Source: a virus (taxonomy: Duplodnaviria; Caudoviricetes). From it: 35,362 bases of DNA. The notes beneath the pieces were generated by a model. It worked only from the letters and a program-made list of their open reading frames with translations. It searched no databases and was not told the origin of the DNA. The DNA is taken from the IMG/VR virus record IMGVR_UViG_3300038466_000035, positions 1-35,362 of that record. One strand, 5' to 3'. Made by a program: the position numbers and the translations under genes. Position 1 is the first letter of the stretch, and each line of letters begins with the position of its first letter. This document shows positions 2,094-35,362 of the stretch, piece by piece.

Positions 2094-3628
2094 ACCAATC
2101 GCAGATAGAGGTTGTTGAGCATTTCTCAGATCCCCGTTGGCGGATGAATAATCTCTATTGGATCGTGGACGAATCCGGAAAGAAAATCCCCTTTAGGTTG
2201 AACGGCACACAGCTAAAGCTCATGGACGATCTTTGGTATTTCAATTTAATTTTGAAATCCAGACAGCATGGCATAACCACGGTCGTCGATATTATGGGTC
2301 TTGATCAAGCCCTGTTTAACGACAATTTTTCAGTAGGAATTTGCGCTCACACCCGGGAAGATGTTGAGAAAATCTTCCGCACCAAGGTAAAATTTCCCTA
2401 CGACAACCTGCCTGAAGGATTAAAGAATGCGCGTGGAGCGAACACAGACACCGCCAAAATGCTGGTATTTGCAAATCAGTCGTCAATTGAAGTTGCAACG
2501 TCATTAAGGTCAGGAACTTACCAGTTTGCACATGTGAGCGAATTTGGTAAAATCTGCGCTAAGTATCCGGAAAAGGCGAAAGAAATCGTCACCGGAACCT
2601 TTGAGACTATTCATCCCGGAAGCTATTTGTTTGTCGAAAGTACGGCAGAGGGCCGCGACGGGTATTTCTATCGCTATGTTACCGAGGCAATAAAGCGTCA
2701 GCAGATGGGCGATGCGCTCAATAAGCTGCAATTTAAACTACACTTTTTCGCATGGTTCGAAGATCCAAAAAACAAACTCGATGCCGCAACCAGAATCCCC
2801 CAAGAATACGAAAAATATTTTACAGCGCTTGAAAAAGAACACGGCATTATCCTGAACCAGGAACAAAAAATCTGGTATGCAACAAAAGCTCAAACGCTTG
2901 AAGATGATATCAAAAGAGAACATCCATCAACCGTTGACGAAGCGTTTGAGGCCGCAATCTCTGGAGCTATTCTGTCAAAACAAATGGCCTTTTTACGGAA
3001 AAACGGCAGGATTACAGAAGTCCCCCATGATCCGGCGCTCCCAGTTAACACAGGATGGGACTTTGGTCTCAGGGATAGGATGTGTATATGGTTCCATCAA
3101 TATGTTGGATTGCAACACCGGATTATTGATTACATGGTCGGAACCGACGACGATGTATTATATTATTGGCGTGAAATGCAACGAAAACCATATATTTGGG
3201 GACATCATTATCTGCCTCACGATGCAGGGGCACGCAGAATCGGTACGGCAAAAAGCGCGGATCAAAAACCTAAAACACTGGAACAAATTTTAAATGCTGC
3301 CGGAATGCGAAACACGCACATTGTTCCGGTTGTTCCTAATAAGTGGACCGCAATCCAAGAAGTCAAACTGTTCATGCCGGGCTGTTGGATCAGCATAAAC
3401 AACTGCGAAGATGGCATATTGGGGCTCGATAATTTTAAAAAGGAGTGGGATGAAACAGCCGGAGACTGGAAGAATCAACCGGTTCATGATTGGGCTATGC
3501 ATCCCTATGACGCTATAGAATCACTCGTAAGAGGGATCAGCGCGTTTGGCTGTGCCGTAACTGCGCCCAAGACAGAATATCAACCCGAAGCAACATATCA
3601 ACCTTCAGACGCTGAGATTGGAATGTAA
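2090..3628 (+). CDS. terL: Terminase large subunit
   Basis: ILKSRQHGITT Walker A-like, HVSE Walker B-like and ESTAEG motif III; nuclease motifs GWDFG, YLPHDA and HDWAMHPYDA. Confidence 0.95.
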   Translation: MNQSQIEVVEHFSDPRWRMNNLYWIVDESGKKIPFRLNGTQLKLMDDLWYFNLILKSRQHGITTVVDIMGLDQALFNDNFSVGICAHTREDVEKIFRTKVKFPYDNLPEGLKNARGANTDTAKMLVFANQSSIEVATSLRSGTYQFAHVSEFGKICAKYPEKAKEIVTGTFETIHPGSYLFVESTAEGRDGYFYRYVTEAIKRQQMGDALNKLQFKLHFFAWFEDPKNKLDAATRIPQEYEKYFTALEKEHGIILNQEQKIWYATKAQTLEDDIKREHPSTVDEAFEAAISGAILSKQMAFLRKNGRITEVPHDPALPVNTGWDFGLRDRMCIWFHQYVGLQHRIIDYMVGTDDDVLYYWREMQRKPYIWGHHYLPHDAGARRIGTAKSADQKPKTLEQILNAAGMRNTHIVPVVPNKWTAIQEVKLFMPGCWISINNCEDGILGLDNFKKEWDETAGDWKNQPVHDWAMHPYDAIESLVRGISAFGCAVTAPKTEYQPEATYQPSDAEIGM

Positions 3629-8390: not shown

Positions 8391-9428
8391 ATGGCAGTTC
8401 AAAATTACAGTACTCAAGCCAGCCGAAACCTTATCAGGGCAGAGGCCAAAATGTTAAAACATGCCGAGCCGATTCAGGTGCTTGGGATGTTCGGCGCGCA
8501 GAAAGAACAGCCGCTGAGAAAAACAGATACGGTTGTTTTTCGCAGACTTAAACCCTTTAACGCAACCGCCGCAGAAGTTCCCAATATCACAGCGGCCAAC
8601 TTCGTAACGGCTGAGGGCGTAACCCCGACAGCGAACACGATCAGCTACACCGACGTATCCGTTACCCTTCAACAGTACGCCGTACTGTTCAAGTTTTCCA
8701 GCAAGGCACAGCTCATGTATGAGGATGATATCCCCGATGACATGGCAACGTTGACCGGCGAAACCATGGCCGAAGTAGCTGAGCTGGTGGCATACGGACA
8801 GGTAAAGGCAGGAACCTCGCTTGTTTACGCGAACGGCACGACACTGATTGGTGTGGCGTCAGCGGTAAGCCTCGCAAGGTTGCGGCTCTGTGCCCGTACT
8901 CTCGAAACCAACAGGGCAAAAAGAGTCACATCGTCAATCAAGCCCGGCCCGGATTTCGGAACGTCCTCGGTTGAGGCAACTTATCTGGTTTTCCATCACA
9001 CGGATTGCAATTCCGACATCAGGGATCTTCCCGGATTCACCAAGGTCGAGGATTACGGATCAGCAATTAAAAAGGTTCATCCAAGAGAAATCGGAGCATG
9101 CGAGGAATTCCGGTTTATACCTTCGCCCTTATTTGCACCTACTCTTGCGGTCGGGGCCGCGGTTGGGGTAACCGGGATGAAAGCAGCGAATGCCGCCAAC
9201 ATCGACGTTTACCCGATGATTATCACCGCGCAGGACGCCTGGGGACATGTATCATTGAAGGGTAACGGTTATTCGTCAATCTCTCCGACGATCATCCCCT
9301 GCAATGTAAAGAATCATGCGAACCCGTCAGGTATGTTCGGTTTCGTCGGCGCTGACTTCTGGTATAACGCCGTCAGGCTGAATGAAAACTGGATGGTAAA
9401 TTATAAGGTGGCAGTTACAGATTTGTAA
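8391..9428 (+). CDS. Major capsid protein, N4-gp56 family
   Basis: TVVFRR, AEGVTP, V.LQQY, EIGACEEFRFI and NPSGMFGFVG...LNENWM motifs; TAAGGAG SD. Confidence 0.92.
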   Translation: MAVQNYSTQASRNLIRAEAKMLKHAEPIQVLGMFGAQKEQPLRKTDTVVFRRLKPFNATAAEVPNITAANFVTAEGVTPTANTISYTDVSVTLQQYAVLFKFSSKAQLMYEDDIPDDMATLTGETMAEVAELVAYGQVKAGTSLVYANGTTLIGVASAVSLARLRLCARTLETNRAKRVTSSIKPGPDFGTSSVEATYLVFHHTDCNSDIRDLPGFTKVEDYGSAIKKVHPREIGACEEFRFIPSPLFAPTLAVGAAVGVTGMKAANAANIDVYPMIITAQDAWGHVSLKGNGYSSISPTIIPCNVKNHANPSGMFGFVGADFWYNAVRLNENWMVNYKVAVTDL

Positions 9429-9475
9429 AAACCATTGGCAACATTGGAATAATTTAGATGATACAGACTTTTCCC

Positions 9476-9504
9476 TTGACCGAAACAAACGATTTTGGTA
9501 TAAA
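9476..9504 (+). promoter_or_regulatory. sigma70-type promoter of the HNH gene
   Basis: TTGACC (9476-9481), 17 bp, TATAAA (9499-9504), with an extended -10 TG at 9496-9497. Confidence 0.6.
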
Positions 9505-9541
9505 TTGGATAATACCAACCAATATACTAAAGGAGCTTGCT

Positions 9542-10237
9542 ATGCCAATTGAAAAAGTTTGTGTTGTCTGTGGTCAGAAATTCAAAGTTCCTCCGGTTCG
9601 AGAATTAACAGCGAAAACCTGCTCGAATAAATGCGCCATATCTGTACGGGCAAAATCGCGTGAGCGCAAAGTGCCCAAAATATGCCAGCTCTGTGGCAAG
9701 CGTTTTGAGGTGCCACAATCCCATACAGATAGGCATAATTATTGCTCATTAAAATGCAGGTATGAATCGCCTGAATATCGAAAATCGGTAAGCGAAAGAA
9801 TGAAGGGCGAAAACGGGCCAAACTGGAAGGGCGGTGAACCGGTTCATGCTGAAGGTTATATTTTAAAACATGTTCCGGAGCATCCGTTTGCAAGGAATGG
9901 CTATGTTTTTAAGCATCGCCTGATCATGGAAGCCTGGCTCCGCGAAGAAAATCCGGAAAGTGAATATTTGGTGTGGCTTGGCGAACAACTATATTTATCG
10001 CCAGAAGCAAGTATCCATCATCTGGATGAGATTAAGAAAAACAATCGTCGGAGAAACTTAATGGTTTGCTGGAGAAGCGTCCATATGGCACTCCATAATG
10101 GGAAAGAACCTAAGCCGGGAGCGTATTGGCCACCCAATGTGAAAATTAAACTTGGTGATAAGGCTAAACATTTACATAAGCCTAAAACCTTAACAAACTT
10201 ACCCGATTTTATGAAAGGAGTAAAATCACATGAGTAA
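9542..10237 (+). CDS. Free-standing HNH homing endonuclease with N-terminal Zn-finger repeats
   Basis: Two CxxC...CSxxC units, GENGPNWKGG, YVFKHRLIME and IHHLDEIKKNNRRRNL...HMALH HNH motif. Start moved to ATG 9542 (AAGGAG SD). Confidence 0.88.
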   Translation: MPIEKVCVVCGQKFKVPPVRELTAKTCSNKCAISVRAKSRERKVPKICQLCGKRFEVPQSHTDRHNYCSLKCRYESPEYRKSVSERMKGENGPNWKGGEPVHAEGYILKHVPEHPFARNGYVFKHRLIMEAWLREENPESEYLVWLGEQLYLSPEASIHHLDEIKKNNRRRNLMVCWRSVHMALHNGKEPKPGAYWPPNVKIKLGDKAKHLHKPKTLTNLPDFMKGVKSHE

Positions 10238-20992: not shown

Positions 20993-23900
20993 ATGCCATT
21001 ATCCGACTGGAATGCAATACAGCAAGATCCAAAATACTGGGAATATTCTCCTGAAGACAGGGCTTTAATTAAGGCCGGATGGTTTACTAAAAACATAACG
21101 CCTACTCCTGAATTCCAGAAATATAGTCCGGAAGATCAGGAATTTATACTGAAGGGATTTACGCACCAAACAGACATAAACCCTCTTGAGGAAAATCGCG
21201 AAAAAGACGGCTTGTTTGTGTCGGGGGTTAAAAGAGGCATTGAACAAACGCAGGCGGTGGGATACGGTGCGCTTGGGTTAGTAGGCTCTGCCGTTGGCTC
21301 TGAAGATTTAAAGAAGTATGGATATGAAGGATATTTAAGGAATACGGAGGAAGCGAAACAATACCCTAAAGAGACGAACTTTCTCGACATAAGAGGCCCT
21401 GCTACGGCTGGGAAATGGGCGGTAGAGACCGCAGGGGAAATGATTCCATCGTTGGTAGAGGCTGGCGTTACGTCAGCAGCGGGGGCGGTTATTGGTGGGA
21501 TGGCGGCTCCCGGTCCCGGCGTTGTTGCTGGTGGACTTGCTGGATTCTTTGGTAAAAGAGCTATCAAAAAAACAATTGAGGAAACAGCGAAGCAGTTTAT
21601 CAAAAAAGGCATGGCTGTTGAATTAGCAGAAAAAGCTGCTATTGAGCATGTTGAAAAGATCGGGATAAGCGCGATCCAAAAGTCTGCACTGCGAATCGCA
21701 GGAGCTAAGGCTGGCGTTGTTGCTGGTGTAACCCCCCTTGAGGCGGGCGGCAATTGGGGCGAAAACATGGAGAAGGGTGTAGATAATCCGTGGTCAGCCC
21801 TTGCAACAGGAACAGCAGCAGGATTTTTAGAGCTTGCGGGCGGGAATATTAAGATAATAGAAAGGATTCTTGGGCCAAAGAAAGCAGCGATTTTCGGAAA
21901 AGCGATTGGGGATAAAGCAATAGATGTTGTCTCCAATTTTATCCGTAAGGCTGCGGTTGAAGCGCCGAGCGAGTTCGCGCAAGAGGCTGGTCAGGAGCTT
22001 TTGTCTCTTGCTAACACAGCTTATAACGATCCAACCTTTAAAGTTTTTACGTTAGATAATTTAAATCGTGTGGTTGAATCAGGAGCCGCAGGTGGACTGA
22101 TGGGGGCTGCCGGAGCAACCACAACGGTTTTTGATGGCTCGCAAAAACCACAATCACCCCCGACCATCAAGGAAAACCTCAATAAAATATCCTCCGCCAC
22201 AAACATTGACGAAGCCGTCGGAGCTTTTAACGAAGCCGTAAAACCGAACGCAACTCCCGAAACAGGTATCCTTGGTACAGCCATGAAGTCGGCGGATCAG
22301 CTTTTAAGGGAACAAAACCAATCTGCAATAGACGCGACTTTCGCTCCAATACAAAAGGCCGAGGCTCAAGATAAATACGGTTTTCAGCCTGCAACGGTTG
22401 AGGCGACTCCGGCACCACAAACAATTGCTGATCGCAAAGCCCGACTTGCAGCCGAAATTGAAAAAGCACGCAACCCGCTTGGTCGGGAGTCCGGCCTTAC
22501 TTCAATAGCTCCCGACACCTCCTACGGGGCTCCTGTCGAAACAGCTCCCGGCCAAGCATCTCTTGAACAGCAAGTTAAGCCTGTTGTTGAGGATGTCAAG
22601 GCCGAAGCGAAAGAGCAGCCTGTTCACGATTACAGCAGTACGCAGGTGAACCTCCCCGAACCAGAGGCCGCGCCTATAAAACAATTCGGGCAAACAATAC
22701 CGGAAGATGAAATTTATACCGACCCGAAAGACCCCTCTTATGGCAGGGAAGAAAATCCTCACGTCACGGTCAAATATGGATTGCATACGACAAACGCAGA
22801 AGAAGTAAGGCCGCTTCTTAAAGACGTTGGAGCCATTACCGGAAAATTAGGAAAGGTCTCCATTTTTGAATCTGATGATTACGATGTCGTGAAGGTTGAT
22901 ATTGAAAGCCCCGAACTTCACGACCTTAATAAGAAAATCGCAAAAGGAACAAAAGTTACTGACACCCATCCTGATTACAAACCGCATGTGACAATTGCAT
23001 ATGTGAAGAAGGGTCAGGGCAAGAAATATGTTGGAAACAATTCCTTTGAAGGCAAAGAGGTAACATTTAACGAGCTGACTTTTAGCGGAAAAGATGGAAA
23101 GGAAACCGTTATTCCTCTTCTTAAGCCGGAGCTGAAAGCCGAAAGCCCGAAGCCTGCCCCCAGAAAGTTAATGGGAGTTCCGGTTTCAAGGGTGAACTCA
23201 AAAACCGAGGAAGGGGTCACATACGAATTATATCACGCGACTGATCCGAAAGATGCAAGAGGGCTTATCAGGATAGTTGACGATTCCGGAAATGTTGTCA
23301 GCGTGAAAGGGTTCCCCTCAAAAGAATCTGCCTTAAAAGGTTTTGAGGATGCAACAAAACTAATTAAAACAGAGACGCCCGCTAAGGCTGCTAAGACGGA
23401 AACCAAAACCAGTATTGGCAAAAACTCCGAAGGCCAAGACATCTTTGAAGACGATAACGGAATACGGCATATTGTTCGCAACGGGATCAGAATATCTGAA
23501 AAAGTTATTATGGTGCCGACAAGGGCAGGGGTTGAAAAGCGTTCGGTAACTCCAAAGGATCAGGAATTTGAGGTATCTGAAAGACCCAAAGGCCCGAAGT
23601 TCATTCCTCACGACGGATGGCAGAAAAATCTTATTAAGGCCAGGATGTACGCAAACGAGCTCAAGATAGACCATAAGGGCAAGAGCCTTGAACAGATAGT
23701 TGCGGAAATTGAAGGGGAAATAGCCAACCAGTCCGAAGCCGGTCCCGCTAAAAAAGAAGGCATAGACTGGTATTTGGTAAACCAATCAGTCGAACTGTTT
23801 TACAAGAACAGGGAAAACATAGCAGATTCAAGAGCCATAGACAGATTGAAAAATATTGTGGCCATGATGAATCCTGAAACGAAAAAGCAGTATGATTTTG

Positions 23901-26900
23901 AGACAAGTGAAGCGACACCTGCCCTAGAGGAAAAGGCTAAATCTGAAAAATCAGCCTATACAGCAGCCGTTGGCATATTGTCCGGCGGCGTAGCAGATAG
24001 AGCAAAAACCAACCGCTATGAATTTGTATATGGCGAGACAAAGAATTACTCTGACTTATATTACGAAATGGTCGGTCTGTTTACAGGCTTAAAAGCCGAT
24101 AAGTTGGTAGCTGCCGGAATTACCATCAAAAGGATAAAAGAAGAAGTACCGCTTTCCAGCGAGATTGCCCCTGTCGATCTTTCCGCAAAAAGCACGAAAG
24201 ACCTGGTGGGCGATATATTCAACATTATCAACGATCATCTTGGGGAACGCGGCTCGATCGGGGACATGCCTTCTCTCGATGAAGGCCTGTATCAGAAACT
24301 AAAACCTTATTTGTCCGAGATCGTAAATAGAGCAAAAGCGAAAGCCCTTGATATTAAATCTTATTTATTCGGTGCCGTTGATTCTATGCCAGAAGGAAAG
24401 GCCAAAGACGTATATGAGCAGGCCGCGAATAAATATATTCTTGACATTTCAAAAGAAAAGGATATATTAGAATCACCGGGAGGTAAAAAAGATGAATATT
24501 CCACAGATGGCAGCACAGGCACGAGACCACTGGCGGAAGACCAACCCCAAGACCTACAAGAAGATGGTAGCGGACGGGGCGCTGGAGAGGGAGAGCGTGG
24601 CAGCGGCGAAACTGACCTTGGCGGAGATGGATACCTTGATGAAGGGGGGGCTGCCGGAACAGGAAGCTTGGCAGGAAAGCCGTCACTTATTCATATTCCA
24701 GACAGCGAAACAGATCGAGGCGGGTTATCAACCGGGGAGATAGAAGAGGACCAGACTCCGGCACCAAGCGAACCCAGGCAACTTAAACTTACCGGAACCA
24801 ACCCAGGAAACTACCGCATTACCGAAGCCGACAACATCGGAAGCGGAACTCGCGGGCAGAAAATAGACCGCAATCTCGCGGCAATTCGCCTTATCAAGCA
24901 ATTAACAGCGGAAGGCAGATATCCTACCAGAGCGGAACAGTCAACCCTTGCAAAATACGTTGGATGGGGCGGACTGAAAAAAGTCTTTGATAAAGACAGT
25001 AAATCGCCCCAAGATATTCAGGCCAGAGAGGAACTCGAAAAACTCCTCACCAAAGATGAATATAACAGCATGTTCTTGTCCATTACGGACGCACACTATA
25101 CCAGTCCGGAAATAATCAGTTCTATATATGACGTATTAAAACATATAGGATTCCAGGGCGGAAATGTTCTTGAGCCTACATACGGCGCTGGAAATTTTAT
25201 CGGTCTTATGCCTGAAGATCTGTCCGCGTCTTCTAAGTGGTACGGGTCCGAACTGGACTCAGTTACCGCAAAAATAGGTCAATTCTTATACCCCGATTCT
25301 CAACTTATAGAATCTGGATTTCAAGTAGCTGAATTCCCTTATGGTAAATTTGATCTTGCTGTCGGCAATCCACCTTTTGGTGATACCCGAATTACAGATA
25401 CCAAGAAAAACAGATCCGCAATAAATAGATTCAAGATTCATAACTATGTAATATCGAAAGAGGCGATGCACCTTCGACCCGGCGGTATTGTTGCGAATGT
25501 CATAACCACAAGATTTCTCGATACGCAAGACCCAGAAGCCAGGGACTTCCTGTCTAAAAACTTCCGATTTCTCGGAGCAATCAGACTCCCGAATGATGCT
25601 TTTGCAAAGAACGCGGGGACTACTGTTTCAACCGACATCGTTTTCTTTCAAAGACTCATGCCTGGGGAAAAGCCAGATATGAAAGCTGACTGGTTGACAA
25701 CTGGCGCGACTATGACGAATTCAACCGGGGAGACGATTATCCTCAACAAATACTTTGCGAATAACCCTCAAATGATGCTCGGCGAACCGTCAATGAAGGG
25801 TACGATGTATGGCGGAGCATGGAAAGAGGGCGGAAAAGGCGAATTTACATTAGACAAAAGAGAAGGCGAAAATACTCCGGATCTGTTCAAGAAAGTTATT
25901 GCCGAACATATGGCGGACTTGAAAAACATTGCACAGAAGACAGACGACAAAGCTGAAGCTGCCGCGATATCCCTTACAATAAACAAAGAAGATGTTGGAA
26001 TTGGTGGTTTTTATCGGGATAACAATAAGATATATATGCGCGGGGATGATGATTCGTATGGTAATCCGACTTTTGCGCTTCTTTCTCCTGAAATGAAATG
26101 GACTGAAAAAGAGCCTCTTGGAGAAAGACGATATGATCGAATAAAGGGCATGCTCAGTTTGCGTGAAAAGACCTATAAACTTATTGAGTCTGAAAGATTT
26201 GATCTGCCCGAAATGGAGTCTTTACGAAAAGACCTTAATAAAACATACGACGCTTTTGTAAAAGAGCATGGATATTTAAGCACTCCGGCAAACTTCCGGC
26301 TAATGTCGGATGATATCAAAATAGAATTCGGCCTTGAATCCGGATATAAAAAAGAAATAACAGCGTCCAGGGCGAAGACCTTGGGGATAAAACCTTCTCC
26401 CGCGGTTGCAGTAAAATCAGCTATTTTAAATCAGAGAGTATTCTATCCTGCAAAAGAAATCATTTTTGCGAAGGATGTCCGCGATGGATACGGAATATCC
26501 CTTTCACAGAGAGGCAAGCTGGACGTTAATTATATTGCTGATCTCACAAATAAGACTCCTGATGATGTAGCCAAGGAATTATCTGATCTTGACCTTATTT
26601 TCAAAGACCCCGAAACAGACGGATGGGTGCAGGAAGACGAATATCTTTCCGGAAATGTTAAGGCAAAATATAAAGAAGCCGTAAAGGCTGGACTCAATAA
26701 AAACGTTGCTGCTTTAAAGGCGGTGTTTCCTGCCGACAAGACCTCTGAAAATATCTATGCGGGGATAGGCGCAACATGGATACCAAAACAGGTTTATGAA
26801 TCCTTTGCGGAATTCATAGGGATAAGCGGTTCCCATGTAACGATATCCCATGATACTGGTAAAGTGTATTTAAGCGGCGGCGATTCCACTCAAAACGACA

Positions 26901-29900
26901 TCAGCGTAGCATGGCAGAATGAAGACTATGGCGTGACAGCTCTTTATAATGCTGCCCTTCAAAAGAAAACCCTTATTGCTTACGATGGAACCGGAGACGA
27001 TAGGGCCGTAAACAGGGAAAGAACGAAAGGGCTTGCAACTATTACAAAGGCAATAAATAATACTTTTGCAGATTGGTTGTTCGCTGACACCGGAAGATCT
27101 GTTGAGGTTGTTAAGGTTTTCAACGAGACGCAGAACACTCATGCAAGCAGGAAATACGACGGCAAACATCTTAAAACCGTGGGAAACTCGCCTTCTATCG
27201 CTTTACGGAAAACACAAAGCGATGCGGCATGGAGAATGATTCAGTCTCCGGTTGTCCTGTTGGATCATGCCGTCGGCGCCGGAAAGACCTTTACTATAAT
27301 AACGGGTATCATGGAAAAAGTTAGGATGGGGCTGACAAACAAAGCCCTGATAATAGTCCCGAATCATCTTGTAGGGCAATGGGCATCTGACTGGCTCAAG
27401 TTATATCCCGGAGCGAATATTCTGGCTGCATCAAATAAAGACTTTTCGAAACCGAACAGAAGACGGCTTTTCTCAAGAATAACAACAGGTAAATATGATG
27501 CCGTTATTATCGGGCATTCATCCTTGGGGTTTATTCCTATAGAGAGAGATACTTTCTTAAACCTGATGAACGAGGAAATAGAGCATCTTGAAAGAGCCGA
27601 AAAAGAGGCCAAAGCCGCAGGCGAAAAAAGAACCGCGCGTGGACTTGCAAAAAGAATACAGAAAAAACGTGAGAAAATTACAGAGCTTTTAAACAAGCCG
27701 AAAGATAATGTTACTCATTTTGAGCAGATGGGGATTGACCATATTGTTATTGACGAATCGCAAGAGTTTAAAAACCTTGAATATTCAAGTTCGATGCAGA
27801 ACATAACCGGTATGGGTAATCCCGCCGGATCGAAGAGAGCTTTTGACCTGTACTCAAAAATAAGATGGCTGAACACCCAGAAGAACTTTGGAGTCACCTT
27901 AGCAACAGGAACACCGATAAGCAACTCTCTTGTGGAGATGTACTCAATATTAAGATATCTCAATAGGCAGGGGCTTATTGATAGGCAACTTGAGGCTTTC
28001 GATGCCTGGGCGAACACATACGCAATCACGGAGAATGTAATAGAATATACGGCGTCGCAGAGACTTAAAGACCGAAAGGTAATGACAACCTTTAAAAACG
28101 CCAACCAGCTTTTGCAGCTATATGATGAGTTTTCTGATTCTATAACAATGGATGATGTAAAACGAATATACGCTGAACAAACAAGGAAATCCAATAAGCT
28201 GACTGGCAAAAACGAAAGGATAGAATTCCCCATTCCTAAAGTAGAGACCGGGGGAAGGCAGCTCGATACGGGGGAGCCGGATAAATCTCAAGCAGAATTC
28301 AATAACTACCTTGTAGCCAGAGCACAGAGACTTGAAAAACTCGGCAGACAAAATGATCCGAAGGTTGATAACCATTTATGGGTAATGTCTGATGCCAGAA
28401 AAATGGCACTCGATGTGAGACTTGTCGATCCAACCGCGAAAGCCGGTAAAAACAACAAGGTCAACCGGTCAGCTAAAAAGATAAAAGAAATTTACGACCG
28501 GACAAAAAAGGACAGAGGAACACAGCTTGTATTTTGCGATCTGTCAACTCCTGTAAAAACAGCCATTACAGATGCCAGGAAATTTATAAAGGCTGCTTCG
28601 AAGATTGCGAAAGTCGATAAAGACGAGGCAATCCAGAACGCGCTCGCCGGAATGTCTCTATATTGGGACAAGTGGAAATATATACATCATCTTATTGAAT
28701 TAGAGATTGAGCAGATATCTGAGCACGATAAGGCCGAAACAGATACTTACCGAGCCCGCCGTGAGGCACTTGAAGAATTCCTTAACGAAAAGGCTATTGA
28801 CGATGAACTCGCTGTTTTAACAACGGCAGATACGAAGTTTTCAGTATATGATGATCTTAAAAGCGTTCTCATATCAAAAGGAATTCCAGCCGGCGAAATC
28901 AGGTTTATTCACGAAGCGAACACGAAAGACCAAAAAGCAGAGTTATTCGGACTGGTGAATTCCGGGGCCGTCAGAGTGCTTATCGGATCTACCGCGAAAA
29001 TGGGTGCGGGAACAAACGCCCAAGAGCGTATGGTAGCGCTTCACCATCTTGATGCACCCTGGAGACCGTCTGATGTCGAGCAGAGAGAGGGACGCCTTGT
29101 GCGACAGGGAAATGCCCTTTACGACAAAGACCCTGACGGCTTTAAGGTTGAGATCCATGCGTATTCCACAAGCAAGACCTTTGATGCTGTTATGTGGCAG
29201 ATTCTTTCAAGAAAACAGGGGATGCTTGACGATTTCAGGAATGGCAAAGATGTCATAGAAGACAAAACCAATGATGCTGCCAGCTATGCAAATTTCATGG
29301 CTGAGACCACAGGGAATCCTGCTTTCAAGGAAAAACACCAGCTCGAAGGCGATGTTGAGGAATTAACCGCGTCGAAAAGAAGGATAACGACAAGACGGAG
29401 ATCCGCGGAACAGAGCCTTGTTTCAAACGAAGCCCGCAGGGAAGAAGCCAAGTCGGATGTTGAAAGATGGACAAAGACCCTCGATAAAGTCAAGCAGCTT
29501 AAAGAGGACAGGTTCACCTATGAAGGCAAAGAATATGTAAACGATATCGCGGAAGTCGAGGCCGCCGAGCGAAACAAGATAACGGAAGAGAATGCAAAAA
29601 CCAAGGAGGATCACGACAAGGTAATATCCCCTATTTTCGATAAGGTGGGACTGAAATATCCAGAGTTTGATAAAAATGCGTATTTGTTTAAATCTAAAAG
29701 AAATCAATCGCAAATCGAGGCGGACGAATACTTAGAAAAGTTGTTGGAAGATGCAGGCATTGAAAGACATCCTAAATCCATTCAGTTTGACCGCGACAAA
29801 CTATCAAAGAAAAATCCGGCAATCGCAGCGGCAATTAAAATCAGGAAGGATATAAACAAGATCGCTGTTGATGGTGGCGGTAGTCTGGACTTTTATCTCG

Positions 29901-32900
29901 GAGATGCAAAGATTACCGTAAAAGTATCTCAGGTTTCCGGAACCGAAGGCAAAGACGAAAGATACGACTTCAAGTATTTTATTGACGGATCTTATGTAGA
30001 ATCAGATTGGAATGTCGCAAGCGCTACCTTTAACGATGTCGCAAATTATCTGTCTGCTAAAACCGTCAGCAATAAACTTGGCGGACGGATAGACCGGGCG
30101 AGAGGCGCTATAGAGGCTTATAATAAGTCGGATATAGATGCCAGAAGAACCCTCGAAAAATTGCAGTTCAAGGACGATGACAAATTAACCGAAAAGAAGC
30201 GGAGATATGATCAGGTCGTACAAGAGGTTAATGAGCTTGAAGCGCGTATGACAGAACAAAGGGAATCGGAGCACAACAAGTATATTACGAAAGATAAGGC
30301 CCGGTTTGGAGATGAATCGTTTGGAGGGGCTACCGCTACTGGCCCCGCAACTCCCGTCCGAAGAGAGATACAGGTAGGGGCAAGGGCAAAGGGCGGGCAG
30401 ACTTTTTATATTCAAATAGCCGATCCCGCCGGAAAGCCCAAGTTTGAAGCCGTAGAAGGTAAAAAGGTCGAAATAGTGCCTTTTGCAGAGTTCTTTATCA
30501 GAAAAGATAATGAAAAGAACCAGCCATGGATCATCACAGAAAGAAGATCTGGCTTATCCGTTGCGTCAGACATGACTCAAGAAAAGGCCATAGACAGGGC
30601 CAAGAACCTTCTGGGAAAGTATGATGAAAAAACATTCGGAACCCTTATAGACGAGCGTGTCGCTGAACATGGCGAAGCGCCTAAGTACTCGGTCGGAACT
30701 GAAACAAAAGGCCAACCCCTATCCCTTGCCAATGTCCAGAACATCTTCAAAAACCAGGACGTAAAACAGGATGGCGACAATTTCACAGTTACCTTGAAGA
30801 ATGGTACTGTTATTCCTGTTCAGGGAGTGACTTCAATTACACCGAATAGTATGGCTTTAAAATTAGGGCATGGGAGAGGTCAGCTTAAGGCAGGACAGAC
30901 CATAACCGGCAGATACGACGGGAAGTCTATCCAGATTGTAAGAGACAGCGAGAAGGCCCCATGGACGCTTACACACGAAGCCGTACATCTTCTTGAGGAT
31001 ATGGATATTATTGACTCAAGCGACCGGGCGACAATCGAAGCGCAGTCTAAAAAAGAAGGTGCTTGGAATAATAAATTAAACGCCGCCGAAAACCGGGCTA
31101 ACTGGCTGGCTGATTTTGTAACCGGCAACAGACCAGAACGCACGGCACTTCAAAAGATATGGGATAAGATCAGGGAATTTGTAAACAGCATAGCAGGTAT
31201 CAGGACGGCTGAACGGATAGGAAAAGAGTTGAAATCCGGGGAGATATTCGGGAAGCAGGCGGGAACAGAAAGTTTTGCACAGCCTACAAGATATTCTCTA
31301 AAGGAAGCCGTTAAGAACATACTAGATAACTCGAATTTCGTTAAGTGGTTTGGTGATTCAAAGGTTGTGGATTCGGACGGGATACCGCTGGTGGTTTATC
31401 ATGGAACGGATCAAGAGATAGATGCTTTTTCAAAAGAAAAATTAGGATTTAACACATTGGCAAAAAGCGCCAAGGGCGGCTTTTTTTTCACAAACAATTC
31501 AAGGGCGGCGGGTCTTTATCCTGTTTATCCTAAACATGAATTGCTGGAATACGGTGGGTTTATACCAAAATATCCAGAAAGATATTTTGAATCTACGCCA
31601 GAATGGAGCGAGCTTCGTAATATTCAAAAACAAATAAGTAATGCGATTGAGAAAAGGGATAAGCGTATTGCCGATGAAAGCTTCTTCTCGGAAGAATATC
31701 AATCGCGCCGAGATAAAATTCAAGCAGAAACGGTGTCTCCATTAATTGAAAAAGAAAAAGAGATAAGCGCAAAACTACATAAAACCCCAGAATATCAAAA
31801 GTATAAAGCTGAGAGAGAATCGGCAAGAAATAAAGCTGAAAGCAACAATCTTATCGCGCGTTCGATCAACGCACAAAAAAACTTCAAATCTATCAATGAT
31901 GAATTTAGGAAATATATACGGGAAAATAAGCCGGATGATGCAGACTTATATTCTCTGGCGGAAGTAATTGGAAGAAGTTTCCCCAAGCAAAATTTAGGGT
32001 GGGGAGATTATGGTTTCAATAAATTTGTTGAAGAAAAATATAATATTCCCCATCAGAATGACACCGTTGAAGATACCGCAAAAAACGAAGAGAAATATCA
32101 GTCAGCATTAAAAAAAATGGGCGAAGCTGGAGAGGCTATTATCAACTCTGGATCTCCCTTGGGGGCAACGGCTAAAAAAATTAAAGAAGCTGGGCTCGTT
32201 GCATATGCGGCGGAGAAGGATGCTACCGAATGGAATTATATATATAAGTTTTCCGAACAGGCATGGGAAGGTGGAGATGCAGCAAGCGGGGAGGACTGGG
32301 AAGCCAAAAAAGAAACACTTCAACCCAATATTATTCCTGCCTATCTTTCTCTGCAAAATCCCTTGATTCATGATCAGGCAACGCCATACAGGGACATAAC
32401 TTATGCGAAATTAATTGATAGCGCACGTAAAGCTGGTCATGACGGGTTGATTATAAAAAACACAAAAGACCCACTTCCTATGGATGTTTATGTCGCCTTT
32501 GAACCCACCCAAATAAAGTCCATCTTCAACAGAGGAACCTTCAGCGAAACCAATCCTGATATACGGTATTCCCTTGCCGAAAGATTAAAGCCCTTCTTCT
32601 CACAGCTTGAAAAAGCGGTAGCCTTGAAAATGGGCGGTAAAATGCCTGTTGACCAGCTCAAGAAGATGCTGAAAGCCCAGAACGTAACAGATGCCGAGAT
32701 TGAAAACCTGATAGGCGGTCTTGAAGGTACGGTTACGAAACAGCAGGTCATGGATGAGATTTCAGCGAATACTGCGGAGTTTGAGGATGTGGTGTTGGGC
32801 GGCAAAAACGAAATCCTTGATTACGAAGGTATGCCGTCAACGGAACTCCAGGATGTTGTAGATGAATATGGACAGGGCGATCTGTCTTTAGAAGAATTTC

Positions 32901-35362
32901 AAGAACAACTCAAAGAGAAAGGATATGAGGCAAGGTTAGATGGTAACTTAGAAGTGCAGGGGATATATAAAATCGGAGAGCCGGAGTTTGATGCTCCTAC
33001 CCACTTCTCCCAATACCAAGAACCCGGAGCCGAACCCGGAAGCTACGGGGAGATGTTTGTAACTGCACCGAAAGAGTATTTAGAGATGTCTCAATTAAAG
33101 GGTGGGCGATATTCGCACGTTTGGAATGATGGACATCATCAATATAATTCAATAATGAACCCGATAGTCCGAATCCGCTTTAATGAAAGAAATGTTGATG
33201 GAAAGAAGGTTCTCTTCGTTGAGGAGCTTCAAGGCCCGAATCCAGCGAATCAGGCCAAAATGCCGGAATGGTTACGCAAGAGGATATACGATATTGGCGT
33301 AAAGCGTGTTCTGGCTTATGCGAAAGAGAACGGATTTGACGGGGTGGGCTGGACATCTGGTGATATGCAGGCGGGGAGATATGATTTAAGTAAACATATC
33401 ACACGTCTTGATTATATTAAGCAAAACAACGGAACCTATACGCTGGTAGCATGGAAAAACGGTAGGCCGATAGAAGAATTAAACCACAAAATGGCATACC
33501 TAAAAGAAAACGAAATAGAAACCTATGTTGGAAAAGATATTGCACAAAAAATTATAGAAGGGGCCGGAGTCGATAACGAAAGCGATTCTTTTGCGGCTCA
33601 ATATTCCAGAACTCTTTCCGGTCTCGACCTCAAGGTAGGTGGCGAAGGACTGAAACGCCTGTATGACGTAACTATCCCTGCCCTGTTTAAGAAGTACGGG
33701 AAGGAAGGGGTGGGGGCTATTAATATAACCTATAAAACTCACGAGGCCGAAATCTCGGCAAGAGATGAGTTTGGAAATGCTATGCCAACTGTTGCAGCAC
33801 AAAAGAGGACAGTGAGCACTCCCGTTCCCTTCATCCCCATATCAGACAAGACTCCGGCAAGCTATCCGATGTATTCCATCGCTGATAAGCCAGTTACCGA
33901 AGCCGATATCCGGGCAGCGGTAGAAAAATATAACGGAACATACGATGGAGAATGGAAGGACTTTGGTGCATGGTCGGTTACGGATAATGTTACGAAGTCA
34001 TCTTTCATGGTACGGAATCCAAAGACTATCGCTATAAGATTTGCGGAAGCAAGGGGGGAGAAGGTTGAGCAGTATTCGGTGGAAACTGCCAAGGAAGAAA
34101 ACACTGACAAAAACTTAGTCCAAGACCTAAACAATAAACTTGCAGAACAATTCAATAATAAGGAATGGAAAAATGCGTACACAGCAACAGAAAATGTCCC
34201 CAAATCTATCCAAGGAATCATCAGAGCCTTTGAAGCCACTTTCAAAACAAGAGTTGTTGCTATTAGCCCAACAGAAGAAAGATTTGCGAGCATCGGTGGA
34301 CAGACGTTCAAGGGAACTTTGTTTGTTGATACATATGCCACCAAGGGTTTTCTCCAGCTTGCGGGACATGAACTCTTGCATAAAATTAAGAAAGAACGCC
34401 CGGAGATCTATAAGACGCTCCTACCTGCGGCTCGAAATGCTTTTCGCAACATTGAAGAATACGAAGAGGCCGTATCCCGAATCATGCTCCCAGGAGAAAG
34501 TGCTTTATCACGTGATCAAATAAAAGAGGAGCTTATTGCAGATTTTACCGGCGATGCTTTAGCCGATCAGGACTTTTTAAAATACATGGCAGGAGAAGAC
34601 GCCTCGATTTTTAAGAAATTCCTCAGATTTGTAACGGACTGGCTTAAAGACGTGTCTTCCAAGCTGTCAAAAGAAGGTTTCGGCTCTTCACAATATTTTG
34701 CAGACGTGGATGGTCTCCGTAAGTATTTAGATGTTGTTTTACATGATTTTGCAGAGAGGGATAATGTTGATGCCATAGACAATGTATCGCCTCCGGCATT
34801 TTCAAGGACGCGCGTTACAAAAGCCGATGACATTGACGGGCTCTCTCTTTTTCCTGAAGTCAATGAACGATTAAGGGCTTCCAAGGGAATTCAATACGCA
34901 TCCTTAAAAGATAAGGCAAAGGATGTAATTATTACAGGCTGGGAGCATTTAACCAGGCATTTCCAGCATCTTGATCCTGAAACCGACGGTGCCGCAATTG
35001 ATGTTTTCCGCAGATTCCAGGACGTTCCTTCATGGGCAAAAGACGAAACAGTCCAGAAGCTTTCAGGTTTTGTAGGGAAACTTTCCCTCCGCAACCGAGA
35101 AGTTTTTACCATGAACATTCTGCTCCCAGACATGATACGCGATATCGAAAACGGGACATTGTTCGCTGACGATGAGGCTGGTCTTCCGTTTGGATACAGG
35201 GACAGAGGGCAGGTCCATCAGGACTACGAACACTTTAAGGCTATTTCTGAAGAAAATCCCGAAATAAAAGAAGCTCTTAAAAAACGTAACGATTTTATGT
35301 CTTCATTAACGGATCAATTAATTAAAAACAAACTGTTAAAAAAAGATGTTTCAAAAAATCCA
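20993..35362 (+). CDS. Giant polyvalent ejection-type protein with a DarB-like methyltransferase-helicase core (at least 4790 aa, runs off the window end)
   Basis: ATG 20993 (MPLSDWNAIQQDPKYWEYSPEDRALIKAGWF). The same frame reads as sensible protein at every point I translated, through ...KDVSKNP at 35362. The ORF track lists no terminated ORF in this frame, consistent with no internal stop. Confidence 0.92.
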   Translation, partial: MPLSDWNAIQQDPKYWEYSPEDRALIKAGWFTKNITPTPEFQKYSPEDQEFILKGFTHQTDINPLEENREKDGLFVSGVKRGIEQTQAVGYGALGLVGSAVGSEDLKKYGYEGYLRNTEEAKQYPKETNFLDIRGPATAGKWAVETAGEMIPSLVEAGVTSAAGAVIGGMAAPGPGVVAGGLAGFFGKRAIKKTIEETAKQFIKKGMAVELAEKAAIEHVEKIGISAIQKSALRIAGAKAGVVAGVTPLEAGGNWGENMEKGVDNPWSALATGTAAGFLELAGGNIKIIERILGPKKAAIFGKAIGDKAIDVVSNFIRKAAVEAPSEFAQEAGQELLSLANTAYNDPTFKVFTLDNLNRVVESGAAGGLMGAAGATTTVFDGSQKPQSPPTIKENLNKISSATNIDEAVGAFNEAVKPNATPETGILGTAMKSADQLLREQNQSAIDATFAPIQKAEAQDKYGFQPATVEATPAPQTIADRKARLAAEIEKARNPLGRESGLTSIAPDTSYGAPVETAPGQASLEQQVKPVVEDVKAEAKEQPVHDYSSTQVNLPEPEAAPIKQFGQTIPEDEIYTDPKDPSYGREENPHVTVKYGLHTTNAEEVRPLLKDVGAITGKLGKVSIFESDDYDVVKVDIESPELHDLNKKIAKGTKVTDTHPDYKPHVTIAYVKKGQGKKYVGNNSFEGKEVTFNELTFSGKDGKETVIPLLKPELKAESPKPAPRKLMGVPVSRVNSKTEEGVTYELYHATDPKDARGLIRIVDDSGNVVSVKGFPSKESALKGFEDATKLIKTETPAKAAKTETKTSIGKNSEGQDIFEDDNGIRHIVRNGIRISEKVIMVPTRAGVEKRSVTPKDQEFEVSERPKGPKFIPHDGWQKNLIKARMYANELKIDHKGKSLEQIVAEIEGEIANQSEAGPAKKEGIDWYLVNQSVELFYKNRENIADSRAIDRLKNIVAMMNPETKKQYDFETSEATPALEEKAKSEKSAYTAAVGILSGGVADRAKTNRYEFVYGETKNYSDLYYEMVGLFTGLKADKLVAAGITIKRIKEEVPLSSEIAPVDLSAKSTKDLVGDIFNIINDHLGERGSIGDMPSLDEGLYQKLKPYLSEIVNRAKAKALDIKSYLFGAVDSMPEGKAKDVYEQAANKYILDISKEKDILESPGGKKDEYSTDGSTGTRPLAEDQPQDLQEDGSGRGAGEGERGSGETDLGGDGYLDEGGAAGTGSLAGKPSLIHIPDSETDRGGLSTGEIEEDQTPAPSEPRQLKLTGTNPGNYRITEADNIGSGTRGQKIDRNLAAIRLIKQLTAEGRYPTRAEQSTLAKYVGWGGLKKVFDKDSKSPQDIQAREELEKLLTKDEYNSMFLSITDAHYTSPEIISSIYDVLKHIGFQGGNVLEPTYGAGNFIGLMPEDLSASSKWYGSELDSVTAKIGQFLYPDSQLIESGFQVAEFPYGKFDLAVGNPPFGDTRITDTKKNRSAINRFKIHNYVISKEAMHLRPGGIVANVITTRFLDTQDPEARDFLSKNFRFLGAIRLPNDAFAKNAGTTVSTDIVFFQRLMPGEKPDMKADWLTTGATMTNSTGETIILNKYFANNPQMMLGEPSMKGTMYGGAWKEGGKGEFTLDKREGENTPDLFKKVIAEHMADLKNIAQKTDDKAEAAAISLTINKEDVGIGGFYRDNNKIYMRGDDDSYGNPTFALLSPEMKWTEKEPLGERRYDRIKGMLSLREKTYKLIESERFDLPEMESLRKDLNKTYDAFVKEHGYLSTPANFRLMSDDIKIEFGLESGYKKEITASRAKTLGIKPSPAVAVKSAILNQRVFYPAKEIIFAKDVRDGYGISLSQRGKLDVNYIADLTNKTPDDVAKELSDLDLIFKDPETDGWVQEDEYLSGNVKAKYKEAVKAGLNKNVAALKAVFPADKTSENIYAGIGATWIPKQVYESFAEFIGISGSHVTISHDTGKVYLSGGDSTQNDISVAWQNEDYGVTALYNAALQKKTLIAYDGTGDDRAVNRERTKGLATITKAINNTFADWLFADTGRSVEVVKVFNETQNTHASRKYDGKHLKTVGNSPSIALRKTQSDAAWRMIQSPVVLLDHAVGAGKTFTIITGIMEKVRMGLTNKALIIVPNHLVGQWASDWLKLYPGANILAASNKDFSKPNRRRLFSRITTGKYDAVIIGHSSLGFIPIERDTFLNLMNEEIEHLERAEKEAKAAGEKRTARGLAKRIQKKREKITELLNKPKDNVTHFEQMGIDHIVIDESQEFKNLEYSSSMQNITGMGNPAGSKRAFDLYSKIRWLNTQKNFGVTLATGTPISNSLVEMYSILRYLNRQGLIDRQLEAFDAWANTYAITENVIEYTASQRLKDRKVMTTFKNANQLLQLYDEFSDSITMDDVKRIYAEQTRKSNKLTGKNERIEFPIPKVETGGRQLDTGEPDKSQAEFNNYLVARAQRLEKLGRQNDPKVDNHLWVMSDARKMALDVRLVDPTAKAGKNNKVNRSAKKIKEIYDRTKKDRGTQLVFCDLSTPVKTAITDARKFIKAASKIAKVDKDEAIQNALAGMSLYWDKWKYIHHLIELEIEQISEHDKAETDTYRARREALEEFLNEKAIDDELAVLTTADTKFSVYDDLKSVLISKGIPAGEIRFIHEANTKDQKAELFGLVNSGAVRVLIGSTAKMGAGTNAQERMVALHHLDAPWRPSDVEQREGRLVRQGNALYDKDPDGFKVEIHAYSTSKTFDAVMWQILSRKQGMLDDFRNGKDVIEDKTNDAASYANFMAETTGNPAFKEKHQLEGDVEELTASKRRITTRRRSAEQSLVSNEARREEAKSDVERWTKTLDKVKQLKEDRFTYEGKEYVNDIAEVEAAERNKITEENAKTKEDHDKVISPIFDKVGLKYPEFDKNAYLFKSKRNQSQIEADEYLEKLLEDAGIERHPKSIQFDRDKLSKKNPAIAAAIKIRKDINKIAVDGGGSLDFYLGDAKITVKVSQVSGTEGKDERYDFKYFIDGSYVESDWNVASATFNDVANYLSAKTVSNKLGGRIDRARGAIEAYNKSDIDARRTLEKLQFKDDDKLTEKKRRYDQVVQEVNELEARMTEQRESEHNKYITKDKARFGDESFGGATATGPATPVRREIQVGARAKGGQTFYIQIADPAGKPKFEAVEGKKVEIVPFAEFFIRKDNEKNQPWIITERRSGLSVASDMTQEKAIDRAKNLLGKYDEKTFGTLIDERVAEHGEAPKYSVGTETKGQPLSLANVQNIFKNQDVKQDGDNFTVTLKNGTVIPVQGVTSITPNSMALKLGHGRGQLKAGQTITGRYDGKSIQIVRDSEKAPWTLTHEAVHLLEDMDIIDSSDRATIEAQSKKEGAWNNKLNAAENRANWLADFVTGNRPERTALQKIWDKIREFVNSIAGIRTAERIGKELKSGEIFGKQAGTESFAQPTRYSLKEAVKNILDNSNFVKWFGDSKVVDSDGIPLVVYHGTDQEIDAFSKEKLGFNTLAKSAKGGFFFTNNSRAAGLYPVYPKHELLEYGGFIPKYPERYFESTPEWSELRNIQKQISNAIEKRDKRIADESFFSEEYQSRRDKIQAETVSPLIEKEKEISAKLHKTPEYQKYKAERESARNKAESNNLIARSINAQKNFKSINDEFRKYIRENKPDDADLYSLAEVIGRSFPKQNLGWGDYGFNKFVEEKYNIPHQNDTVEDTAKNEEKYQSALKKMGEAGEAIINSGSPLGATAKKIKEAGLVAYAAEKDATEWNYIYKFSEQAWEGGDAASGEDWEAKKETLQPNIIPAYLSLQNPLIHDQATPYRDITYAKLIDSARKAGHDGLIIKNTKDPLPMDVYVAFEPTQIKSIFNRGTFSETNPDIRYSLAERLKPFFSQLEKAVALKMGGKMPVDQLKKMLKAQNVTDAEIENLIGGLEGTVTKQQVMDEISANTAEFEDVVLGGKNEILDYEGMPSTELQDVVDEYGQGDLSLEEFQEQLKEKGYEARLDGNLEVQGIYKIGEPEFDAPTHFSQYQEPGAEPGSYGEMFVTAPKEYLEMSQLKGGRYSHVWNDGHHQYNSIMNPIVRIRFNERNVDGKKVLFVEELQGPNPANQAKMPEWLRKRIYDIGVKRVLAYAKENGFDGVGWTSGDMQAGRYDLSKHITRLDYIKQNNGTYTLVAWKNGRPIEELNHKMAYLKENEIETYVGKDIAQKIIEGAGVDNESDSFAAQYSRTLSGLDLKVGGEGLKRLYDVTIPALFKKYGKEGVGAINITYKTHEAEISARDEFGNAMPTVAAQKRTVSTPVPFIPISDKTPASYPMYSIADKPVTEADIRAAVEKYNGTYDGEWKDFGAWSVTDNVTKSSFMVRNPKTIAIRFAEARGEKVEQYSVETAKEENTDKNLVQDLNNKLAEQFNNKEWKNAYTATENVPKSIQGIIRAFEATFKTRVVAISPTEERFASIGGQTFKGTLFVDTYATKGFLQLAGHELLHKIKKERPEIYKTLLPAARNAFRNIEEYEEAVSRIMLPGESALSRDQIKEELIADFTGDALADQDFLKYMAGEDASIFKKFLRFVTDWLKDVSSKLSKEGFGSSQYFADVDGLRKYLDVVLHDFAERDNVDAIDNVSPPAFSRTRVTKADDIDGLSLFPEVNERLRASKGIQYASLKDKAKDVIITGWEHLTRHFQHLDPETDGAAIDVFRRFQDVPSWAKDETVQKLSGFVGKLSLRNREVFTMNILLPDMIRDIENGTLFADDEAGLPFGYRDRGQVHQDYEHFKAISEENPEIKEALKKRNDFMSSLTDQLIKNKLLKKDVSKNP
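22625..23120 (+). other. 2H phosphoesterase domain (Acb1 / T4 gp57B-like) within the giant protein
   Basis: Two HxT motifs 75 aa apart: GREENPHVTVKYG (His codon at 22760) and HPDYKPHVTIAY (His codon at 22985). Confidence 0.82.
24441..24484 (+). promoter_or_regulatory. Internal sigma70-type promoter and SD inside the giant gene
   Basis: TTGACA (24441-24446), 16 bp, TATATT (24463-24468); GGAGGT at 24479-24484, 7 nt before ATG 24492. Confidence 0.68.
24492..24743 (+). CDS. Nested 83-aa gene in the +1 frame of the giant gene (possibly TnpV-like)
   Basis: Own promoter and SD; protein-like amphipathic helices (AAQARDHWRKTNPKTYKKMVADGAL...GLPEQEAWQESR), while the host frame here is a G/E/D-rich linker. 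Confidence 0.7.
   Translation: MNIPQMAAQARDHWRKTNPKTYKKMVADGALERESVAAAKLTLAEMDTLMKGGLPEQEAWQESRHLFIFQTAKQIEAGYQPGR
24809..25900 (+). other. N6-adenine DNA methyltransferase domain (DarB-type) within the giant protein
   Basis: NLAAIRLIK...YVGWGGL lead-in, AHYTS, motif I VLEPTYGAGNF (25166-25198) and motif IV NPPF (25367-25378). Confidence 0.9.
27200..29330 (+). other. SF2/SNF2-type helicase domains (DarB-type) within the giant protein
   Basis: HAVGAGKT (27266-27289), IDESQEFKN (27749), ATGTPISNS (27902), QLVFCD, MGAGTNAQ and WRPSDVEQREGRLVRQGN. Confidence 0.92.
30700..31260 (+). other. Zincin-like metallopeptidase domain 1 (MPTase-PolyVal-like)
   Basis: TLTHEAVH (HExxH at 30974-30988), downstream AENRA and LQKIWDKIREFV helix. 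Confidence 0.7.
31330..32560 (+). other. ADP-ribosyltransferase-like domain (ART-PolyVal-like) with a large insertion
   Basis: FVKWFGDSKVVDSDGIPLVVYHGT (YHGT at 31397), GFFFT (31478), then PAYLSLQNP (32336), GHDGLII and VAFEPTQIKSIFNRGTFS. Confidence 0.78.
34200..34700 (+). other. Zincin-like metallopeptidase domain 2 (MPTase-PolyVal-like)
   Basis: LAGHELLH (HExxH at 34367-34381), EELIADFTGD (about 34526) and IFKKFLRFVTDWL helix. Confidence 0.78.

What the first reader, a model, noticed from the sequence alone, without database searches (positions are those of the whole stretch)
24441..24743. Complete gene (promoter, SD, 83-aa ORF) nested out of frame inside the giant gene, just before the DarB-like core
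Seen: TTGACA-N16-TATATT, GGAGGT-N7-ATG and an 83-codon ORF in the +1 frame that reads like a folded helical protein. Over the same span the giant frame becomes a G/E/D linker (DGSGRGAGEGERGSGETDLGGDG), and the MTase lead-in begins about 65 nt after the nested stop. From memory, unverified: the sequence resembles TnpV-like small proteins. Inferred: the ejection gene captured a small-gene-plus-MTase/helicase unit by reading through it and kept the small gene functional. It would be expressed independently of the late operon, perhaps as a partner, inhibitor or antitoxin of the injected enzymes. Standard annotation would miss it.
Basis: partly seen in the sequence, partly recalled or inferred. Interest (0 to 1): 0.85.

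Follow-up and report, generated by a model that had tools for sequence, protein, structure and literature searches.

The report
Hidden TnpV-like gene inside antirestriction giant
A conserved gene for a small helical protein lies in a second reading frame inside this phage's giant methylase-helicase gene and inside its relatives, other mobile elements have repeatedly carried off just this small gene, and it likely acts as an off-switch for the giant injected enzyme.

Summary
Observation confirmed: TTGACA-16-TATATT, GGAGGT-N7-ATG and an 83-codon +1-frame ORF (24492-24743) inside the >4790-codon DarB-like gene. It is a real gene: nested in the same frame at 62 distinct loci including named phages (Pavtok, VvAW1, Atu_ph08, Itty13), purifying selection acts on the small frame and not the giant frame, and it folds confidently (pLDDT 97). 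It is a remote TnpV relative. Full TnpV genes are nested the same way in Firmicutes ICE-type methylase-SNF2 genes, and its best structural match is PG0816/DUF1896, the free gene just upstream of Bacteroides methylase-helicases (weak, Z 7.4). In the window's clade, 18 distinct free-standing copies carry relics of the giant frame, 8 of them near restriction-modification genes, so the small gene was captured more than once. The promoter is conserved only in part of this clade; expression and binding are untested. Best guess: a separately expressed inhibitor of the methylase-helicase (0.4). The scan reported the nesting before on other DNA (8 notes). I found no paper describing it.

The parts
24441..24468 (+). 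sigma-70-like promoter TTGACA-N16-TATATT (predicted)
   Evidence: best site, 11/12; same motif 20-26 nt before the start in L001, L109, L116, L106, L097, L127
24479..24484 (+). Shine-Dalgarno GGAGGT, 7 nt before ATG
   Evidence: SD-like motif in 59 of 62 distinct nested loci by a loose pattern without a null
24492..24743 (+). nested 83-aa gene in the +1 frame; five-helix TnpV/DUF1896-like protein
24491..24808 (+). low-complexity G/E/D/S/R linker of the giant protein read over and just after the nested gene
   Evidence: 14% hydrophobic against 29%; 1 near-invariant position against 13 in the small frame
24809..25700 (+). LPD36 (GWGG motif) and N6-adenine methyltransferase (NPPF) of the DarB-like core
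   Evidence: (phrog_10089 DarB-like, E 1.8e-271); domain description in PMC5512222 section 14
20993..35362 (+). giant polyvalent virion-type protein, open at the window end: 2H-phosphoesterase/Acb1-like, MTase, SNF2 helicase, ART-PolyVal

Best explanation
The 83-residue protein is a conserved gene product encoded out of frame inside the DarB-like gene, and it likely binds the giant protein's methylase-SNF2 module and keeps it switched off in cells that already carry the element. Shown: the gene is real, is tied to this enzyme module in phages and ICE-type elements, and has been carried off alone by other elements. Inferred: because it is out of frame and has its own SD (and here its own promoter), it is not part of the injected polypeptide. 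The giant enzyme would therefore reach a new cell uninhibited and protect the incoming DNA, and would be shut off once the small gene is expressed. In a lysogen or donor cell it would restrain newly made enzyme and blunt the enzyme of superinfecting kin. Satellites, IMEs and restriction islands would capture it to disarm the helper's antirestriction machine. Inferred origin: a small-gene + methylase-helicase operon (as in Bacteroides DUF1896 + N6-methylase) was fused to upstream domains by read-through, with the small gene's -1 frame serving as a disordered linker.
For: Nested in the +1 frame at 62 distinct loci (77 of 106 loci analysed), including 10 of 10 named phage records fetched out of 11 phages hit. 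12 of 12 loci found with the methylase as query carry a nested ORF upstream of LPD36: 10 by profile score above 48 bits, 2 by TnpV hits. Selection is on the small frame: its identity exceeds the giant frame's in all pairs under 90% nucleotide identity, and changes fall on giant codon position 1 in the overlap but position 3 in the methylase in 7 of 7 relatives. TnpV over Pfam's cut-off is nested in the same frame in ICE-type SNF2 genes: 11 of 20 distinct TnpV loci lie in a long -1 frame, 8 with the methylase-SNF2 core in that frame. The small gene persists without the giant: 18 distinct free copies, with nucleotide homology to nested loci mostly limited to SD-to-stop, interleaved with nested copies on a tree (at least 2, most simply 5 changes). 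8 of these 18 have restriction-modification genes in the fetched flank. TnpV-bearing IMEs insert into ICE snf2 genes (PMC9815147 passages); L163 and L177 show TnpV right after an interrupted SNF2 core.
Against: No experiment and no RNA evidence. Linkage and capture do not give the sign of the effect: an activator or loader would also be captured. A promoter of 10/12 or better is found in only 5 of 62 nested loci, so constitutive expression is not general by this scan. Some methylase-SNF2 genes have no detectable partner: L130, L138, and the SNF2 gene of L129. 4 of the 18 free copies are truncated or rearranged (L101, L104, L112, L115 groups), so some may be decaying relics. No background rate was computed for restriction genes near satellite cargo. 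The DUF1896 link is structural only: Z 7.4, within the range the tool calls common, and profile comparison found nothing.
Confidence: 0.4

Rival explanations
1. The small protein is a positive partner (chaperone, loading or packaging factor, or a detached N-terminal subunit like HsdM-N) that the methylase-helicase needs; satellites and IMEs capture it to recruit the helper's enzyme to their own DNA.
For: Same linkage data. DUF1896 overlaps the methylase start by 11 nt, the layout of translational coupling typical of subunits. P1 DarB needs accessory proteins such as Ulx, of which no homologues were found in Bcep22-like JC1 (PMC9144972 passage).
Against: A promoter separate from the late operon (window clade) and an out-of-frame position are not needed for a stoichiometric subunit. 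Free copies sit beside restriction systems and lack the enzyme.
Confidence: 0.27
2. It is an independent early regulator or anti-defence protein acting on a host target (for example a restriction enzyme or other defence protein), or a recombination accessory as once postulated for TnpV; its position in the giant gene is historical linkage.
For: Works in free form in many elements. The family is mostly acidic (86% of 122 net negative), as DNA-mimic antirestriction proteins are (recalled). DUF1896 is common around AcrIIA9 and ArdA genes (PMC6739104 passage). TnpV was postulated to be Xis-like (PMC3158075 passage).
Against: Persistent linkage to one enzyme module across phages and ICE-type elements. 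The window protein is net +2. Tn4451 excises without an accessory factor (PMC5704250 passage). An anti-restriction protein would be an odd neighbour for restriction genes.
Confidence: 0.25
3. The +1 frame is reached by programmed frameshifting, making a truncated giant that ends in this domain, or the ORF is a chance by-product of the linker.
For: The PBC5 record has exactly such a fusion (gp22), and a few database proteins look like giant-fragment fusions. An open +1 frame alone has a 13% chance.
Against: A +1-frame stop lies 7 codons before the ATG here and 2 codons before it in Pavtok, Stean, PEp14 and SopranoGao. Start codon and SD are conserved (55 and 59 of 62). No shared slippery site was seen. 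Selection acts on the small frame. PBC5 looks like a single-record frame break.
Confidence: 0.04

Closest known systems
TnpV (Pfam PF14198; Tn4451/Tn4453-type IMEs)
   Same: Remote sequence similarity over helices 1-3 (hhalign probability 38, E 3e-4). Both models have 2APL as top-ranked structure. Both occur nested +1 in methylase-SNF2 giant genes with a G/E/D/R linker over them, and both also occur free.
   Different: The window protein scores below Pfam's cut-off, lacks TnpV's N-terminal beta hairpin and has a shorter region after helix 3. It sits just before LPD36, whereas TnpV sits 2-4 kb upstream.
DUF1896 / PG0816 (PDB 2APL, Pfam PF08989) of Bacteroidota conjugative elements
   Same: Best of 48,161 solved chains (Z 7.4, rmsd 2.7, 67 residues, N-terminal domain). 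The gene lies directly before an LPD36-methylase-helicase gene.
   Different: Free gene of 150 aa with an extra C-terminal domain; no sequence-profile match (two-sequence profile); Z is in the range that may reflect a common helical arrangement.
DarB of phage P1 and the LPD36-MTase-SNF2 dyad of polyvalent proteins (Iyer et al. 2017, PMC5512222)
   Same: The host gene is such a protein.
   Different: The paper's main text has no mention of an overlapping or nested gene or of TnpV ('nested' occurs only for a hairpin). P1 darB itself was not examined here.
Embedded phage genes, Rz1 inside Rz
   Same: A complete gene in a shifted frame inside another, found in Bcep22-like phages too (PMC9144972 passage).
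   Different: Different proteins and function; here the host is a 3,600-5,000-residue enzyme gene, the overlap is a linker, and the nested gene also exists as a free, captured gene.

Membership tests
TnpV (PF14198) | Pfam score at or above the gathering cut-off (27 bits) | tested here: not met
   No hit for the window protein; best nested phage relative 25.2 bits (L126)
TnpV (PF14198) | Remote profile similarity | tested here: met
   37 of 122 members hit at E<0.1, best 8e-5; hhalign E 3e-4, probability 38
TnpV (PF14198) | N-terminal beta hairpin (YxRxGDYLxP region) | tested here: not met
   Present in the TnpV model, absent from the all-helical window model
TnpV (PF14198) | Xis-like role in excision (postulated only) | tested here: inconclusive
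   Postulated per PMC3158075; function cannot be assayed here
DUF1896 / PG0816 | Pfam PF08989 or profile match | tested here: not met
DUF1896 / PG0816 | Shared fold of the N-terminal domain | tested here: inconclusive
   Top hit for both models, Z 7.4 and Z 5.6 (the latter tied with unrelated rows); below 8
DUF1896 / PG0816 | Position directly upstream of LPD36-methylase-helicase | tested here: met
DarB-like polyvalent protein (host gene) | LPD36 GXGG motif, NPP(Y/F) methylase and SNF2 helicase in one frame | tested here: met
DarB-like polyvalent protein (host gene) | Packaged in the virion and protects DNA from restriction | not testable with these tools
   The JC1 homologue is virion-associated by mass spectrometry (PMC9144972 passage); not shown for this phage
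Functional nested (embedded) gene | Purifying selection in the shifted frame; conserved start and SD | tested here: met
Functional nested (embedded) gene | Transcribed and translated | not testable with these tools
   needs TSS mapping, Ribo-seq or mass spectrometry
Type II antitoxin / immunity protein | Binds and neutralises a cognate enzyme | not testable with these tools
   needs a binding and activity assay

The most novel reading that the evidence does not exclude
TnpV, DUF1896 and this hidden phage gene are one superfamily of dedicated inhibitors of the DarB-type methylase-SNF2 machine. The gene stays out of frame so that the enzyme is delivered without its brake, and satellites, IMEs and restriction islands have repeatedly stolen it as an anti-antirestriction weapon. 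This would give TnpV and DUF1896 a function and reveal a hidden layer of conflict between phages or ICEs and their parasites.
Probability: 0.27. Interest if true: 0.9.

Novelty: new variant of a known kind. Interest (0 to 1): 0.76.

Why it matters
DarB-like giants are among the largest phage and ICE genes, and how they are controlled is unknown. A conserved, unannotated nested partner gives a direct handle, testable in cultured phages. It links two orphan families (TnpV, DUF1896) to one enzyme module. It suggests why TnpV travels on mobilizable elements that insert into snf2 genes, and it shows how polyvalent proteins can grow by reading through small operons while keeping the small gene alive.

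Tried and rejected
Complex prediction of the small protein with giant residues 1260-2159 (LPD36, methylase, middle region): no answer, score 0.20 against a mark of 0.32; the helicase and ART parts were not tried. Sequencing runs: none was listed. PDB by sequence profile and by Foldseek: nothing significant. No Xis-type structure among the listed VIA rows for either model, which does not exclude it. BFVD gave only Q8W6J4 (I identify it as the PBC5 fusion from recall). A search for longer proteins gave 2 hits without Pfam domains (not examined further); Pfam on 21 longer forms gave one HD-domain fusion and no pointer to a partner. No + strand terminator-like site after the nested stop and no in-frame Met for a separate methylase start before LPD36. 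A second +1 ORF (34140-34523) has no SD and was not pursued. The A3-versus-DUF1896 profile comparison was negative. The L127 protein found nothing in plasmids. Eight literature searches gave no paper on a gene nested in darB/snf2; subscription papers (Gill 2011, Bannam 1995, Piya 2017) and all supplements were not seen.

Full report
Observation. The sequence shows TTGACA (24441), 16 nt, TATATT (to 24468), GGAGGT (24479-24484), 7 nt and ATG 24492, then 83 codons to 24743. This lies in the +1 frame of a giant ORF that runs from 20993 off the window end. The window is a 35 kb, about 60% complete virus record with terminase, portal, capsid and tail genes. The giant carries a 2H-phosphoesterase/Acb1-like domain, the LPD36-methylase-SNF2 core (phrog_10089 DarB-like, E 1.8e-271) and ART-PolyVal domains. 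On its own the ORF is not unusual: 12.7% of 20,000 synonymous recodings keep it open. The combination with SD and promoter arose in 4 of 300 recodings of the whole giant.

It is a real gene. The protein has 22 close homologues at 60-72% identity and 243 clusters at 50% identity. tblastn of phage records hit 20 records of 11 phages. I fetched 10 of the 11; in all 10 the homologue lies in the +1 frame of the giant frame, and none lists it as a gene. In PBC5 a frame break makes annotated gp22 end in it, and in Itty13 the annotation is on the opposite strand. Of 106 loci analysed, 77 (62 distinct) have the small ORF inside a -1 frame of 1000 codons or more; the other 29 are free copies, remnants or short contigs. 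Among 55 loci in register (1481 pairs), small-frame identity exceeds giant-frame identity in every pair under 90% nucleotide identity, with 13 near-invariant residues against 1. In 7 of 7 close relatives, changes concentrate on giant codon position 1 (the small gene's third position) in the overlap, but on position 3 in the methylase control. A start codon sits at the aligned position in 55 of 62 and an SD-like motif in 59 of 62 (loose pattern, no null). AlphaFold2 gives five helices at pLDDT 96.7.

How general. Searching with the methylase instead, 12 of 12 viral loci had a nested +1 ORF upstream of LPD36: 10 by profile, 2 only by TnpV hits; two of the 12 contigs had been seen before. Of 86 phage-collection records with the methylase I hand-picked 12. 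All six phage giants have a +1 ORF of 98 aa or more at the same place. Homology is clear for Mwe-JY07, moderate for USP_18, weak for Bcep22, and undetectable for Y7, Dfl-JY45 and a Helicobacter prophage. Four Firmicutes ICE-type genes (label inferred from context) have none next to LPD36, but two of them hold full TnpV genes nested in the same frame 2-2.7 kb upstream, with SD and the same kind of linker over them. One record has a free DUF1896 gene there, and one (L138) has nothing comparable. The promoter is less general: 10/12 or better in 5 of 62 nested loci, mainly the window's clade, including perfect TTGACA-N16/17-TATAAT in L001 and L109 (and in the truncated contig L106), but not in L012, L079 or L086. 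The closest named relatives are in Smithella and deltaproteobacterial MAGs; L142 has the whole arrangement at 65% identity, so a Syntrophales host is likely (inference).

Family. 37 of 122 members hit Pfam TnpV at E<0.1, with a best E of 8e-5; profile comparison gives probability 38, E 3e-4; the window protein itself has no TnpV hit. Of 41 TnpV loci (20 distinct), 11 lie in a long -1 frame, 8 with the methylase-SNF2 core in that frame, and 9 are free, two of them directly after an interrupted SNF2 core. The model's best solved match is PG0816 (2APL; Z 7.4, rmsd 2.7, 67 residues). A TnpV model ranks the same entry first but tied (Z 5.6, rmsd 2.2, 60 residues). PG0816 is a DUF1896 protein, and DUF1896 overlaps the start of an N6-methylase-helicase gene in Bacteroides elements. 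These Z values are weak for helical proteins and the sequence profiles do not match, so this link rests on fold plus position.

Captured copies. 32 metagenome and MAG loci (18 distinct) hold the window-type gene without the giant. Their -1 frame still resembles the giant's linker (38-51% identity) but is short or broken. Nucleotide homology to nested loci usually starts 3-40 nt before the ATG and ends near the stop, and a few extend into the LPD36 lead-in, so they derive from nested copies. They are interleaved with nested copies on a tree (at least 2 changes forced, 5 by parsimony; 23 rows, poorly resolved). Neighbours include primase-polymerase, resolvase and small-terminase-like HTH genes (satellite-like; my reading) and, in 8 of 18, type I, type III or other restriction-modification genes; five of the others are on contigs of about 3 kb or less. 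Four of the 18 are truncated or rearranged. This parallels TnpV on IMEs, which insert into ICE snf2 genes (PMC9815147, passages; PMC5704250, passages).

Mechanism. Shown: a selected, separately initiated gene tied to the methylase-SNF2 module and able to persist alone. Inferred: it acts on that module. I commit to inhibition (0.4), because an out-of-frame gene with its own signals is made in the resident cell but is not part of the injected chain, and because elements carrying restriction systems would gain from an inhibitor of antirestriction. A positive partner (0.27) or an independent regulator or anti-defence protein (0.25) remain open. A frameshift product or chance ORF is unlikely (0.04).

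Literature. Seen: PMC5512222 (passages and section 14), and passages only of PMC9144972, PMC6630229, PMC9815147, PMC3158075, PMC6739104, PMC10782964, PMC12942858 and PMC5704250. None mentions a gene nested in darB or snf2, nor did the listings of eight searches. TnpV is described only as postulated Xis-like. Supplements and subscription papers were not seen. Earlier notes of this scan report the same nesting on other genomes; a word search for the DUF1896 link and free satellite copies returned none.

Verdict. Real, widespread and apparently unpublished nested gene; function untested. New variant of a known kind; interest 0.76.

Noticed in passing
L011 (PBC5, NC_003324.1) about 8733-9309: A frame break in the record makes annotated gp22 end in the nested protein and splits the giant into two annotated genes; probably the source of the PHROG 938 and BFVD matches.
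   Followed up: partly
L002 (Pseudomonas phage Itty13, NC_070969.1): The DarB-like giant (open frame of more than 4100 codons) is not annotated; three hypothetical CDS are called on the opposite strand instead.
   Followed up: partly
window 22700-23020 (giant aa about 576-674): 2H-phosphoesterase / Acb1-like domain (anti-CBASS family, E 2e-6) inside the giant protein, upstream of the nested gene.
   Followed up: no
window 34140-34523 (+1 frame); promoter-like sites 33121 and 34738: A second long +1 open frame (127 aa, no SD seen) and two 10/12 promoter-like sites inside the giant; probably chance.
   Followed up: partly
L146 (MN270259.1 44296-47628): Free TnpV between a large serine recombinase and an EF-G-like gene (Tet(O)-type from recall), an IME layout inside a streptococcal prophage record.
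   Followed up: partly
L085, L088, L096, L112, L141: Small satellite-like elements in anaerobic-digester-type Deltaproteobacteria/Smithella with primase, HTH and DUF4124 genes and a cargo site next to restriction-modification genes.
   Followed up: partly
L086 about 2850-3000: The DNA just upstream of the nested gene resembles the 3' extension of the 137-aa free copies, suggesting exchange between nested and free copies.
   Followed up: no
window 9458-10237: HNH endonuclease gene inserted right after the major capsid gene.
   Followed up: no
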